Shown here piece by piece: positions 61,901 to 64,000 of a DNA stretch of 64,000 nt (position 1 is the first letter of the stretch; each line of letters begins with the position of its first letter). The stretch lies in assembly GCF_000026545.1 (NCBI RefSeq), contig NC_011601.1; one strand, given 5' to 3'. A program made the position numbers. Source of the DNA: Escherichia coli O127:H6 str. E2348/69. Its GTDB lineage: Bacteria; Pseudomonadota; Gammaproteobacteria; Enterobacterales; Enterobacteriaceae.

Positions 61901-64000
61901 ATAGTTGGGATCAGGCTTGCTACGCCGATAAGAATTGAGGCAGTTGGTTTGTAGAATAGAAGCCCGCAGAGGAAGCTGAGCATCGACAGGAGAACCCGGC
62001 GGCGAATTGGATACTCAACGGCCGAGGTAATAAATATTACCGCGCCTGATAAAGCACCAAGCGCCACCTCTGGTGGAACTCCTGCGATCACTGCAGCCAG
62101 AGAACCCATACTAAGCCACTGATTTAAAGACTCACTGGTTAGCTGGGCTGACATGGTGACCACCGTTTACTGTGCATAAAGACCCCCATTAGTTGGTGAT
62201 CACATCATACACAATAAACCATATATGGTTTAAATAAACTATGACACTCTTGGCGAGTTTCTACACATTATTTGTGGATAAATCTAACAAAATGAAAAAA
62301 ATGCACAGAAAAGTTATGATTACTACAAGATTGTTTTCGGGTAAATTGGCATGAAAAAAACGATATCAATTTCTTTGTTTATCATCATAGCTTGCACGTT
62401 AGCAGGAACAGCGTCTGAGGATGTTGCAAAAGAAAAACAGTACGTTAGTGTTAATGTCCAGAAAGCAGACATAAAAATTCAGTACAAATATTCACTACTT
62501 GAAGACCGGGTAATTGAGCTTAATAGAACTGGTCTTAACAAAATATTTTCATTTTCAAGGCTTTACAAAAATTTTTCTTGGAAGTATACAGATTTTCCCA
62601 GTGGCAGACTGGATGGGTTAACGACAGTTCAAACATTCGACACGGACATCATTGGACCAATTATGGTCAGCGCAGAAAGTAATGAAGATGGTGATGATCC
62701 AATAGCTGAGTTCACAGGTGGCTGGCATGGGTTTAATGGGAACCAGAGTGGCTCTCCTACAGCCAGGCATGTTTCTCTTCAGGTATGGGTAGATGGGAAG
62801 ATGGTCAATGATACATTTAAGGGGTATACAAATGATTTAGTGATAGAAACCACGTCTAACATACAGGGCTTTAACACCAAAAAGAAAGATGGTTCTGGTA
62901 GAGAGATTATTCAACAGAAAGTAAAAATGAAATTTAATGAAGGACGTGCAGATGTGCATATCAAAATGGTTCCCCTTGAAAAGGTGAGGATACACACTTA
63001 CTACGGACTACAAACTGCACTTTCCCAACTGTATGCTAATAGTTCAATTCGTTATGAATCAGGTGACTCTCAAGAATGGAAAGACACCTCCAGCGGACCA
63101 AATGATAGTGGCCCTAAGGGTAAATATCCAAATGTTTACCGCATGACTGCAAAGAACAAACATAATGATGAAGTTGTGGTATGGTTAGACACTAAATACG
63201 GATTAGGGAAAAGATTAAATGTGAGTGATAAGTATCCTTCTGCTTTCTTTGTTGGATATAAAAGTTACTTCAATTTAATAAATGGTATTCCTTTAATTAT
63301 TTCTACAGGACAATCGGCGGAAGTTCACGGAGGCTTAGAGTGGATAAGATCAAATTAAACTACAGTGCACTTAATGGAATATAGTTGAACTATTTATAGA
63401 CCAGCCATATCAATTAAATTTTAACAAACTGAGAATTAATAAGATTAAAATATGATATTGTCATTACAGTATTTAAGAGGGATAGCGGCGATACTGGTAG
63501 TTCTTTACCATTATCGCGGTGAGTTAAATGCATCATATGCACAAAAAGGACTTGGGGATCTTCTTTTTAGCAATGGGTATATAGGTGTAGATTTATTTTT
63601 TATGGTTAGCGGGTTTGTTATCATGCTATCAACAGAAAAAGATAAATCATCTTTATCGTTTGCCATTAAAAGAATCTTTAGGCTATATCCAGTATATATA
63701 GTTTGTCTTATTTTATGCACATATCTCCTATCAAAGCCAATAGATTTAAGCTTCTATAAGTCGTTGTTTTTTATACCATTATACATGAACTCACAAGCGC
63801 CATGGTTTGGGTATTCACTGATATATACTGCATGGACTTTAATGTATGAGATTATATTTTACTTTATTTTTTCATTTTCAATGATGGCATCATGGAGATA
63901 TCGCGGGTTAATTTGCTCGGCTGTTCTTGTGGCGCTACCTTTTTTAATCGGATATTATTATAATAATAGCATTTCATTAAGTGGATATGACGCTGTAATA

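What the first reader, a model, noticed from the sequence alone, without database searches (positions are those of the whole stretch)
62164..62350. Divergent AT-rich promoter region with a perfect 16-bp palindrome
The interval between the start of the lysis cassette and the 335-aa gene contains AAACCATATATGGTTT (62216..62231), a perfect dyad of operator size, placed to control both divergent transcription units. Lysis cassettes are normally driven from a distant late promoter, so a local operator would imply regulation independent of a phage late cascade.
Basis: seen in the sequence. Interest (0 to 1): 0.45.

Follow-up and report, generated by a model that had tools for sequence, protein, structure and literature searches.

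The report
Palindrome straddling a prophage lysis-gene leader
The perfect palindrome is real, but half of it is the base of a conserved RNA hairpin in front of the lysis genes of an epsilon15-like prophage and the other half is poorly conserved flank, so it is most likely an ordinary leader or module-boundary sequence, not an operator.

Summary
The palindrome exists and is 18 bp long (TAAACCATATATGGTTTA, 62215-62232). It is modestly improbable by chance.

The window is E. coli E2348/69. The locus is the end of an epsilon15/phiV10-like (Uetakevirus) prophage inserted between yfgI and guaA. The lysis cassette lies on the minus strand. The 335-aa gene and an AT3 acyltransferase occupy the slot where relatives carry O-antigen conversion genes.

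- **Holin-side half:** across 55 distinct relatives this half belongs to a near-invariant block, CCATATATGGTTTATTGTGTATGATG. The block is the 5' arm of a stable hairpin specific to the holin-sense strand (62161-62223; -26.3 kcal/mol, z -4.7). The hairpin reaches the holin ribosome-binding site. The epsilon15 GenBank record annotates it as a putative RNase III site.
- **Outer far arm (62229-62232):** this varies freely. About 5 of 394 E. coli genomes carrying this leader keep the perfect 16-mer.
- **The prophage's own operator type:** this is a different dyad, TTACC-N5-GGTAA, with 10 perfect copies in the prophage. Most relatives have one about 50 bp further from the holin gene. E2348/69 does not.
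- **Promoters:** no sigma-70 promoter that uses the palindrome is conserved in either direction.

Verdict: an ordinary feature of a known phage family. An operator role is unlikely but not excluded.

The parts
62215..62232 (.). 18-bp perfect palindrome TAAACCATATATGGTTTA (the flagged 16-mer is 62216-62231)
   Evidence: Read directly; enumerated among all perfect palindromes in the window; single exact copy in the window and the prophage.
62203..62228 (-). Near-invariant block CCATATATGGTTTATTGTGTATGATG (holin sense), which contains the holin-side arm and the centre of the palindrome
   Evidence: Alignments A1 and A2 of 6 and 55 distinct relatives. Unique in the prophage. BLAST homology to other E. 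coli prophages ends at 62225-62242.
62161..62223 (-). Leader hairpin P1 in the holin-sense RNA. The 5' arm is the conserved block. The 3' arm ends in the holin Shine-Dalgarno region.
   Evidence: MFE -26.3 kcal/mol, z -4.73, 0 of 200 shuffles fold as well. The opposite strand gives -10.5, z -0.09. RNAalifold consensus has 18 pairs. 98.1% of cells are paired, against 29-53% when partners are slid; one compensated pair, GC to AU, in 11 sequences. It maps exactly onto the epsilon15 GenBank feature 'RNaseIII; mRNA processing'.
62229..62262 (.). Variable but still homologous flank of the leader. It includes the outer far arm of the palindrome (62229-62232) and a decayed remnant of the operator-type dyad found in relatives.
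   Evidence: Unique-leader listings. Per-pair counts: outer dyad pairs complementary in only 53-56% of sequences. The -120 dyad is present in 38 of 69 relatives and absent here.
62160..62164 (-). Holin Shine-Dalgarno sequence GGTGG, 5 nt before the ATG at 62154, partly inside P1
   Evidence: Invariant or near-invariant columns in A2; structure.
62139..62177 (-). 12-codon upstream ORF (MHSKRWSPCQPS). Its AUG lies in the 3' arm of P1, a GGGGG Shine-Dalgarno-like run lies in the apical loop, and its stop lies inside the holin ORF.
   Evidence: Present in all distinct leaders except phage ZX5. The frame differs between the two clades.
61750..62154 (-). First lysis gene, putative holin (Phage_holin_8)
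   Evidence: Pfam 9e-11; PHROG holin 3.8e-40; RefSeq annotation.
60360..61763 (-). Rest of the lysis cassette: second holin (61455-61763, Phage_holin_3_7), GH19 endolysin (60839-61465) and DUF2514 Rz-like spanin (60360-60842)
   Evidence: Pfam; annotation; same order as epsilon15 and phiV10.
62292..62320 (+). Only sigma-70-like match on the + strand upstream of the 335-aa gene (ATGAAA-17-TATGAT, 9 of 12)
   Evidence: Consensus scan. The number of matches is not above shuffles, so this is a candidate only.
62351..63358 (+). 335-aa exported or lipoprotein-like protein of unknown family, the first gene of the O-antigen modification cargo
   Evidence: No Pfam or PHROG match. Homologues head AT3 or GtrABC modules in other prophages. 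AF2 model pLDDT 88.6, all-beta; weak galactose-mutarotase-like matches, TM 0.4-0.47. 38% G+C.
63452..64000 (+). AT3-family acyltransferase (357 aa; cut by the window end), probably an O-antigen O-acetyltransferase
   Evidence: Pfam Acyl_transf_3 1.2e-34; PHROG O-acetyltransferase 8e-71; annotation.

Best explanation
The palindrome is a composite that straddles the upstream edge of the conserved leader of the lysis operon in an epsilon15/phiV10-like (Uetakevirus) prophage.

Its holin-side arm and centre (62215-62228) are conserved because they belong to the 5' arm of a roughly 63-nt hairpin in the holin-sense mRNA (62161-62223). The 3' arm of that hairpin carries the AUG of a short upstream ORF and runs into the holin Shine-Dalgarno sequence.

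By inference, this hairpin is an RNase III-type processing site, a translation-control element, or both. It would act on lysis mRNA that starts upstream of the palindrome, for example by read-through from the tailspike unit. Cleavage or ribosome entry at the upstream ORF would then set holin translation.

The outer far arm (62229-62232) lies in loosely constrained flank next to the interchangeable O-antigen conversion cargo. In E2348/69 it happens to be complementary, or has retained an ancestral complementarity.

The palindrome is therefore not a shared operator for the two divergent units.

Shown: the prophage identity, the conservation pattern, and the stability, strand specificity and pairing conservation of the hairpin. 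Inferred: RNase III cleavage or translational control, and the origin of the transcript.
For: **Locus identity.**
- The window is 100% identical to E2348/69.
- The prophage runs from yfgI to guaA with Uetakevirus gene order.
- The leader and holin are 94% identical to epsilon15 and 87% to phiV10.
- attB at the 3' end of guaA is reported for this phage group (PMC9782041).

**Variable cargo slot.** Between holin and tailspike, relatives carry a wzy-beta polymerase plus inhibitor, oac, GtrABC, an AT3 acyltransferase, or nothing.

**Conservation.**
- The block CCATATATGGTTTATTGTGTATGATG is near-invariant in 55 distinct leaders.
- The outer dyad pairs are complementary in only 53%, 49% (Watson-Crick) and 56% of sequences, with no covariation above shuffles.

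**Hairpin P1.**
- E2348/69: -26.3 kcal/mol, z -4.73. phiV10: -30.8, z -7.3. ZX5: -17.1, z -2.7. Clade 2: -18.2, z -3.1.
- The opposite strand shows no excess stability in E2348/69, phiV10 and the clade-2 example (z -0.09, -0.89, +0.17); ZX5 keeps part of it (z -2.13).
- 98.1% of alignment cells are paired and 0 of 500 shuffles reach that. Nine pairs change on one side only while keeping pairing through G-U. One pair is compensated, GC to AU.
- ZX5 keeps the stem base (GGUUUACUAU with AUAGUAAAC) around an unrelated apical part.
- The palindrome alone folds at only -5.5 kcal/mol and is outcompeted by P1.

**Independent annotation.** The epsilon15 depositors marked the same 63 nt as an RNase III site.

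**No obligatory local promoter.** Phage BUCT711 has no intergenic region at all between tailspike and holin. In clade 2 the dyad follows the tailspike stop codon by 6 nt. Lysis genes there must be reached by transcription from upstream.
Against: - No transcript, cleavage or binding data exist for this locus or family in the literature I could search.
- Covariation support is thin. There is one compensated pair, probably a single evolutionary event between two clades. The shuffle baseline is already 97% because the columns are so conserved.
- The CCATAT immediately 5' of the hairpin is also near-invariant, and the hairpin does not explain it.
- A divergent clade keeps a full 7+7 inverted repeat, AAACCAT-AA-ATGGTTT. 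Perfect 16-mers occur with at least four different far-side flanks. The dyad may therefore be ancestral and could have a function of its own.
- In E2348/69 late transcripts would have to cross about 2.3 kb of antisense cargo to reach the leader, and no alternative holin-sense promoter was identified.
Confidence: 0.55

Rival explanations
1. The palindrome is a genuine protein-binding operator. It would overlap the -35 and spacer of a weak local holin-sense promoter (TAAACC-17-TATGAT, start near 62196), lie in the spacer of a cargo-sense promoter (TACACA-16-TTAAAT), or both. An unidentified dimeric regulator would then control one or both divergent units.
For: - Perfect 18-bp symmetry of operator size, and the interval-level chance is 0.6%.
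- The 10-bp core CC(A/T)6GG is near-invariant, and its 5' part is not explained by the hairpin.
- phiV10 has TTAACC-17-TATAAT (10 of 12) on the holin strand, with the far arm as -35. phiV10 and Tyrion have TACACA-16-TAAAAT and TACACA-16-TATAAT in the cargo sense, with the dyad as spacer.
- Clade 2 keeps 7-bp arms.
- Near-matches in the prophage lie in other intergenic regions: 6 found against 2.2 expected.
Against: - The outer arm is not conserved, and single-sided changes occur in the core.
- The perfect 16-mer is present in about 5 of 394 E. coli genomes with this leader.
- Acceptable -35 hexamers occur in only 13 of 60 relatives and acceptable -10 hexamers in 14 of 60, no more often than at control spacings.
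- The E2348/69 versions score 8 of 12 and fail the scan.
- The dyad differs in half-site and spacing from the prophage's repeated operator TTACC-N5-GGTAA.
- A start at about 62196 would remove the conserved, strand-specific 5' arm of the hairpin from the RNA.
- The dyad does not accompany the 335-aa gene in other prophages.
Confidence: 0.2
2. The full symmetry has no function. A conserved leader that ends in the self-complementary core CCATATATGG abuts AT-rich flank, and three or four extra complementary bases arose or persisted by chance.
For: - About one perfect palindrome of at least 16 bp is expected per 64-kb window.
- Only 3-4 outer bases need to match beyond the conserved core.
- The flank is A/T-rich and varies freely: AAA, TAA, GAA, GAT, ACT, ATT and others.
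- The exact 18-mer also turns up in unrelated AT-rich viral contigs.
Against: AAACC recurs with several unrelated far-side flanks and in the divergent clade 2. This suggests ancestry rather than repeated chance. This reading overlaps largely with the best explanation and differs only in denying any role to the far arm.
Confidence: 0.17
3. In the holin-sense RNA the palindrome forms its own small hairpin followed by UUUAUUGUGU. That hairpin would act as a weak terminator or pause, or as an alternative structure that competes with the leader hairpin for GGUUUA. It would gate read-through from the tailspike or cargo region into the lysis genes.
For: - It can fold as a 7-bp stem with a 4-nt loop, -5.5 kcal/mol.
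- In clade 2 it lies 6 nt after the tailspike stop codon.
- A similar ACCGTATATGGTT next to T and A runs lies between early genes of the same prophage.
Against: - The stem is A/U-rich and weak, with z -0.95 in the holin sense.
- The terminator scan does not flag it.
- The minimum-energy and centroid folds of the leader use GGUUUA in the large hairpin instead.
- Pairing of the small hairpin is not maintained in relatives: 80.5% paired, equal to shuffles.
Confidence: 0.08

Closest known systems
Leader of gene 23 (first lysis gene) of Salmonella phage epsilon15, annotated in GenBank AY150271 as 'protein_bind: RNaseIII, mRNA processing'
   Same: Homologous sequence (94% identity over holin plus leader). 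Same position immediately upstream of the first holin-like gene. The annotated 63 nt map exactly onto window 62161-62223. The same serotype-conversion slot lies on the other side.
   Different: The annotation is a depositor's prediction, not an experiment. The epsilon15 dyad is imperfect (AAACCACATATGGAAT). epsilon15 also carries TTACCCATATGGTAA in the interval, which E2348/69 lacks.
RNase III processing hairpins in phage leaders (lambda N leader, T7 intergenic R sites); recalled from general knowledge, not tested here
   Same: A long imperfect stem (15 + 3 pairs) in an mRNA leader that includes part of the ribosome-binding region of the downstream gene. It is strand-specific and conserved.
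   Different: No sequence relationship, no cleavage data, and the stem is somewhat short for a canonical two-turn RNase III substrate.
The prophage's own operator-type dyad TTACC-N5-GGTAA (one copy annotated 'repressor; lysogeny' in epsilon15)
   Same: Dyad symmetry, 15-18 bp, intergenic, with an ACC...GGT core.
   Different: Different half-site (TTACC against AAACC) and spacing (N5 against N6 between ACC and GGT). It has 10 perfect copies in the prophage, clustered around the HTH repressor gene, against one copy of the palindrome. In relatives its arms are conserved while N5 varies. The palindrome shows the opposite pattern.
Serotype-conversion cargo of Uetakeviruses (phiV10 oac; epsilon15 genes 21-22) and Gtr/AT3 modules of P22-like prophages
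   Same: The + strand genes sit between the tailspike and lysis genes, opposite in orientation to the late genes. They are low in G+C and include an AT3 acyltransferase.
   Different: The E2348/69 module starts with a 335-aa protein of no described family. This exact arrangement in a Uetakevirus slot was found only in E2348/69 among 5,426 complete E. coli genomes. Homologous modules elsewhere lie next to integrases of other prophages.

Membership tests
Repressor operator of this prophage family (TTACC-N5-GGTAA type) | Matches the dyad that recurs at several promoters or intergenic regions of the same phage, including the immunity region | tested here: not met
   TTACC-N5-GGTAA has 10 perfect sites, 16 with up to 1 mismatch, against 0.7 expected. 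None lies in the holin/335-aa interval. The palindrome has one exact copy and a different half-site and spacing.
Repressor operator (generic) | Dyad symmetry maintained in homologous loci | tested here: not met
   Outer pairs are complementary in 53%, 49% (Watson-Crick) and 56% of 55 distinct leaders, and the whole helix equals shuffles. The 16-mer is perfect in 8 of 69 distinct upstream sequences and in about 5 of 394 E. coli genomes.
Repressor operator (generic) | Overlaps the core elements of a promoter it controls | tested here: inconclusive
   Promoter-like hexamers flank the dyad in phiV10 and Tyrion. The E2348/69 versions score 8 of 12 and fail the scan. Such hexamers occur in only 13 and 14 of 60 relatives. 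No start-site data exist.
Repressor operator (generic) | Bound by a specific protein | not testable with these tools
   Needs EMSA, footprinting or a DNA pull-down.
Intrinsic (rho-independent) terminator | G+C-rich stem followed by a U tract | tested here: not met
   The terminator scan does not report it. The stem has 2 G-C pairs, -5.5 kcal/mol, z -0.95 in the holin sense.
Structured mRNA leader / RNase III-type processing hairpin | Stable, strand-specific stem of roughly two helical turns in the transcribed leader | tested here: met
   -26.3 kcal/mol, z -4.73 in the holin sense, against -10.5, z -0.09 on the opposite strand. The same holds in three divergent relatives. The stem has 15 + 3 pairs.
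Structured mRNA leader / RNase III-type processing hairpin | Pairing conserved, with compensatory change across relatives | tested here: inconclusive
   98.1% of cells are paired; 9 pairs are kept through one-sided G-U changes; only 1 main-stem pair is compensated, and that is probably one event.
Structured mRNA leader / RNase III-type processing hairpin | Cleaved by RNase III, or affects translation | not testable with these tools
   Only a depositor's annotation exists, in epsilon15. There is no Rfam family.
Uetakevirus (epsilon15-like) prophage | Gene order tailspike, conversion slot, two holins, GH19 endolysin, Rz, attP, int, with high nucleotide identity to type members | tested here: met
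   Integration between yfgI and guaA matches the reported attB (PMC9782041).
Lysogenic-conversion (O-antigen modification) cargo with its own promoter | O-antigen modifying enzyme gene, opposite in orientation to late genes, of foreign base composition | tested here: met
   AT3 Pfam 1.2e-34 and PHROG O-acetyltransferase 8e-71. 33-38% G+C against 55% for the lysis cassette. Same slot as phiV10 oac.
Lysogenic-conversion (O-antigen modification) cargo with its own promoter | Active promoter in the lysogen | not testable with these tools
   Only a 9-of-12 consensus match at 62292-62320.

The most novel reading that the evidence does not exclude
The dyad, the leader hairpin and the conserved 12-14-codon upstream ORF together form a dedicated post-transcriptional timer for holin synthesis in Uetakeviruses. 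The ORF's AUG is buried in the hairpin and its Shine-Dalgarno sequence is exposed in the loop. Alternatively, the palindrome is bound by an unidentified regulator that lets the lysis cassette be expressed from a local promoter independently of late transcription. In E2348/69 that could be uncoupled from the prophage repressor, because the family's -120 operator has been lost.
Probability: 0.12. Interest if true: 0.5.

Novelty: new member of a known kind. Interest (0 to 1): 0.15.

Why it matters
Little changes if the best explanation holds. It documents one more instance of the lysis-operon leader next to the serotype-conversion slot in epsilon15-like prophages. It also shows that a striking palindrome can be half RNA stem and half drifting flank.

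Three practical points follow:
- Anyone looking for regulation here should test the leader hairpin and its upstream ORF at the RNA level, not just look for a DNA-binding protein.
- The repeated TTACC-N5-GGTAA dyad is the sequence to use when mapping repressor control in this phage family.
- E2348/69 has lost the copy of that dyad that most relatives keep upstream of the lysis genes. This could matter for how tightly its lysis cassette and O-antigen cargo are controlled.

Tried and rejected
- **Shared-operator idea.** I searched the window and the whole prophage for further copies. There are no other exact copies, and near-matches are only marginally enriched.
- **Conserved sigma-70 promoter using the dyad.** I tested the holin sense (far arm as -35, TATGAT as -10) and the cargo sense (TACACA as -35, dyad as spacer). 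Good hexamers occur in 13 and 14 of 60 distinct relatives, no more often than at control spacings. Rejected as a family feature, although phiV10 and Tyrion score 10 of 12.
- **Intrinsic terminator or small hairpin.** Weak and not conserved.
- **Known RNA family.** Nothing in Rfam approaches threshold; best hit 24 bits against a gathering score of 56.
- **Does the palindrome travel with the 335-aa gene?** Upstream regions of homologues in three other prophage contexts are unrelated and lack it.
- **Exact 18-mer in viral contigs.** 15 loci. Seven are epsilon15-like: six were flagged by the TTGTGTATGATG substring test, and L103 ends TATGATA but shows the conserved block and the family's flank. 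The rest are unrelated, mostly very AT-rich contigs, consistent with chance. In one pair it lies in a promoter spacer next to a small HTH gene, which I did not pursue.
- **Literature.** No transcript mapping for Uetakeviruses was found. The epsilon15 genome paper (PMC2698709) is not held.
- **Extending the hairpin so that CC (62227-62228) pairs with the GG of the Shine-Dalgarno sequence.** The columns are invariant, so the test is uninformative, and ZX5 does not support it.
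Full report
**1. Observation**

The sequence AAACCATATATGGTTT is at 62216-62231 as reported. The perfect dyad is 18 bp, TAAACCATATATGGTTTA, 62215-62232. The interval is slightly larger than stated, 62155-62350. The holin start that is conserved in relatives, preceded by GGTGG and used by RefSeq, is the ATG at 62154. The interval is 34% G+C.

Perfect palindromes of at least 18 bp number 2 in the window against 0.34 in dinucleotide shuffles. Those of at least 16 bp number 3 against 1.35. A palindrome of at least 16 bp arises in 0.6% of shuffles of this 196-bp interval.

**2. Where this is**

- The window is 100% identical to E. coli O127:H6 E2348/69.
- The lysis cassette comprises a Phage_holin_8 protein, a Phage_holin_3_7 protein, a GH19 endolysin and a DUF2514 Rz-like protein. 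It is the last transcription unit of a 40-kb prophage lying between yfgI and guaA.
- The prophage has T7-gp14-like core proteins, a tailspike, an integrase next to guaA and an HTH repressor.
- The holin and its leader are 94% identical to Salmonella phage epsilon15 and 87% to phiV10, both genus Uetakevirus.
- attB at the 3' end of guaA is reported for this group (PMC9782041).
- In epsilon15 and phiV10 the slot between tailspike and lysis genes holds serotype-conversion genes transcribed against the late genes: a wzy-beta polymerase plus alpha-polymerase inhibitor, and oac.
- In other E. coli, Enterobacter and Klebsiella relatives the slot holds an AT3 acyltransferase, GtrA/B/C, or nothing.
- In E2348/69 it holds the 335-aa ORF and an AT3 acyltransferase (Pfam 1.2e-34; PHROG O-acetyltransferase 8e-71). 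Their G+C is 33-38% against 55% for the lysis cassette.

So the 'divergent' genes are late lysis genes on one side and lysogenic-conversion cargo on the other.

**3. Conservation of the palindrome**

BLAST homology between E2348/69 and 394 other complete E. coli genomes ends at 62225-62242, inside or just past the palindrome.

I collected 80 viral-contig loci through the holin protein, plus annotated phages and genomes, and aligned 55 distinct leaders.

- **Conserved block.** In the holin sense, CCATATATGGTTTATTGTGTATGATG (62228 down to 62203) is nearly invariant. It contains the holin-side arm and the centre of the palindrome.
- **Variable far arm.** The three or four outer bases of the far arm (62229-62232) read AAA, TAA, GAA, CAA, GAT, AAT, ACT, ATT, GAC and others.
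- **Per-pair counts.** The three inner pairs counted (CCA with TGG) are paired in at least 95% of sequences. The outer pairs are complementary in 53%, 49% (Watson-Crick) and 56%. The helix as a whole equals its shuffles.
- **How often the dyad is perfect.** The 16-mer is perfect in 8 of 69 distinct upstream sequences. Among 5,426 complete E. coli genomes it is perfect in 5 records, representing 3 strains.
- **Clade 2.** A divergent clade, whose leader follows the tailspike stop codon by 6 nt, keeps AAACCAT-AA-ATGGTTT. Perfect copies occur with at least four different far-side flanks. The complementarity is therefore probably ancestral but has been free to decay.
- **The other side.** Homologues of the 335-aa gene (75-87% identity) in prophages integrated elsewhere have unrelated upstream DNA and no palindrome.

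**4. What the conserved half is**

In the holin-sense RNA the block pairs with AUGCACAGUAAACGGU just before the holin Shine-Dalgarno sequence. This gives a hairpin spanning 62161-62223.

| Leader | Holin-sense MFE (kcal/mol) | z | Opposite-strand z |
|---|---|---|---|
| E2348/69 | -26.3 | -4.73 (0 of 200 shuffles as stable) | -0.09 |
| phiV10 | -30.8 | -7.3 | -0.89 |
| ZX5 | -17.1 | -2.7 | -2.13 |
| clade 2 | -18.2 | -3.1 | +0.17 |

 In E2348/69 the opposite strand folds at only -10.5 kcal/mol, because several pairs are G-U.

- RNAalifold recovers the hairpin, with 18 pairs.
- 98.1% of cells are paired, against 29-53% for slid partners. Nine pairs change on one side only while staying paired. 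One pair is compensated, GC to AU, in 11 sequences.
- ZX5 keeps the stem base around an unrelated apical part.
- The 63 nt coincide exactly with a feature that the epsilon15 depositors annotated as 'RNaseIII; mRNA processing'. No Rfam family matches.
- Eight of the nine bases of the holin-side half of the palindrome are in this stem.
- The palindrome folded alone gives -5.5 kcal/mol and does not form in the minimum-energy or centroid folds of the leader.
- The strand-specific structure implies that functional lysis mRNA begins upstream of the block, so the palindrome is transcribed.
- This agrees with relatives in which the holin gene directly abuts the tailspike gene (BUCT711) or follows it by about 70 nt (clade 2).

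**5. The operator of this prophage is a different dyad**

- TTACC-N5-GGTAA occurs 10 times perfectly in the E2348/69 prophage, and 16 times with up to one mismatch, against 0.7 expected.
- Two copies lie between the HTH repressor gene and the divergent cro-like gene, and three lie just downstream of the repressor gene. Others lie upstream of the tailspike, portal, terminase and replication units.
- epsilon15 annotates one copy as 'repressor; lysogeny'.
- In 38 of 69 distinct relatives the same motif, with conserved arms and a variable N5, sits at a fixed position 118-121 nt upstream of the holin ATG. That is about 50 bp beyond the palindrome.
- E2348/69 has only a decayed trace there, apparently replaced when the 335-aa/AT3 module was acquired.
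It attaches to another site, which this strain lacks.

**6. Promoters**

- In E2348/69 the scan finds one + strand match, ATGAAA-17-TATGAT at 62292-62320 (9 of 12). It finds nothing on the holin strand in the interval, and the number of matches does not exceed shuffles.
- phiV10 and Tyrion have 10-of-12 matches that use the far arm as a holin-sense -35, or the block's TACACA as a cargo-sense -35 with the dyad as spacer.
- Across 60 distinct relatives such hexamers are acceptable in only 13 and 14 cases, no more often than at control spacings.
- I therefore reject a conserved promoter built around the palindrome.
- How E2348/69 transcribes its lysis genes remains open. Late RNA would have to cross about 2.3 kb of antisense cargo, past a hairpin that looks like a terminator only for the + strand.

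**7. Mechanism and rivals**

- **Best explanation, confidence about 0.55.** The palindrome is half leader-hairpin base and half drifting flank at the edge of an exchangeable cargo slot. The hairpin, probably together with the upstream ORF it encloses, controls processing or translation of the holin message. The anatomy is shown. Cleavage and translational control are inferred.
- **Rival 1, about 0.2.** A true operator over a weak local promoter.
- **Rival 2, about 0.17.** No function for the full symmetry.
- **Rival 3, about 0.08.** A weak terminator or an alternative hairpin.

**8. Comparison and novelty**

The closest described object is the homologous leader of epsilon15 gene 23, with its predicted RNase III site. 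The gene arrangement matches the epsilon15 and phiV10 conversion slot.

This is a further member of a known kind. The operator reading fails two defining tests, recurrence within the phage and conserved symmetry. Binding could not be tested. Interest is low, 0.15.

The most novel reading left open is a dedicated hairpin and upstream-ORF timer for holin synthesis, or a repressor-independent local control of lysis in this strain. I put its probability at about 0.12.

Noticed in passing
L095 (E2348/69 prophage, outside the window): 7263, 24509, 27857, 30285, 30347, 32654, 32671, 33395, 33457, 33533: TTACC-N5-GGTAA occurs 10 times perfectly, against 0.7 expected including one mismatch. It clusters around the HTH repressor gene and lies upstream of several late and early units, so it is the family's operator-type dyad. 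One copy is annotated 'repressor' in epsilon15.
   Followed up: partly
Relatives L002-L093, 118-121 nt upstream of the holin ATG; corresponding window position about 62260-62274: 38 of 69 distinct relatives carry T(T/C)ACC-N5-GGTAA at a fixed position in the holin/cargo interval, with conserved arms and a variable spacer. E2348/69 has lost it. Whether it controls the lysis operon, the conversion genes or both is unknown.
   Followed up: partly
window 62139-62177, minus strand: A conserved 12-14-codon upstream ORF. Its AUG lies in the 3' arm of the leader hairpin, a strong Shine-Dalgarno-like run (GGGGG or AGGAGG) lies in the apical loop, and its stop lies 14-17 nt inside the holin ORF. It is present in every distinct leader except ZX5. 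The reading frame and the peptide differ between clades, which suggests that the act of translation matters and not the peptide.
   Followed up: partly
window 62351-63358, plus strand: The 335-aa protein has a signal or lipoprotein-like N-terminus and no Pfam or PHROG family. Homologues in E. coli, Salmonella and Citrobacter (75-99% identity) and distant ones in Firmicutes (about 30%) exist. The enterobacterial homologues examined are always the first gene of an O-antigen modification module (AT3 or GtrABC), also in other prophage types next to an integrase. The AF2 model is confident (pLDDT 88.6), all-beta, with weak galactose-mutarotase / YidC-P1 / OpgG-like supersandwich matches (TM 0.4-0.47). 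The invariant motif is FTGG-H.
   Followed up: partly
window 13659-13686: A 28-bp perfect palindrome, CGCTTACCCTGAATATTCAGGGTAAGCG, the longest in the window. It lies 17 nt beyond the stop of a 759-aa minus-strand ORF (13704-15983) and has no adjoining T run on either strand.
   Followed up: no
L109 2064-2081 and L101 2926-2943 (unrelated viral contigs): The identical 18-mer forms the spacer of a near-consensus promoter (TTGACA-17-TATACT), just downstream of a 72-aa HTH gene. It is probably a real operator there and a chance identity with E2348/69.
   Followed up: partly
L095 4447-4464 (between the AT3 gene and the tailspike gene, outside the window): The strong hairpin GCGGGGTCAATGCCCCGC is followed by TTTTTTATTT on the + strand only. 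It is a one-directional terminator for the cargo operon and would not obviously stop late transcription coming from the tailspike gene.
   Followed up: no
L095 32263-32278: The near-copy of the palindrome, CAACCGTATATGGTTT, is flanked by an A run and a T run. It lies between the cro-like gene and the next early gene, next to a degenerate operator-like TTACCAGAAAGGTGT. It may be a weak terminator.
   Followed up: no
L092 (Klebsiella phage BUCT711) 2905-2925: The holin start codon follows the tailspike (GDSL esterase) gene by 7 nt, with no leader, hairpin or dyad. The leader is therefore not universal in the genus.
   Followed up: no
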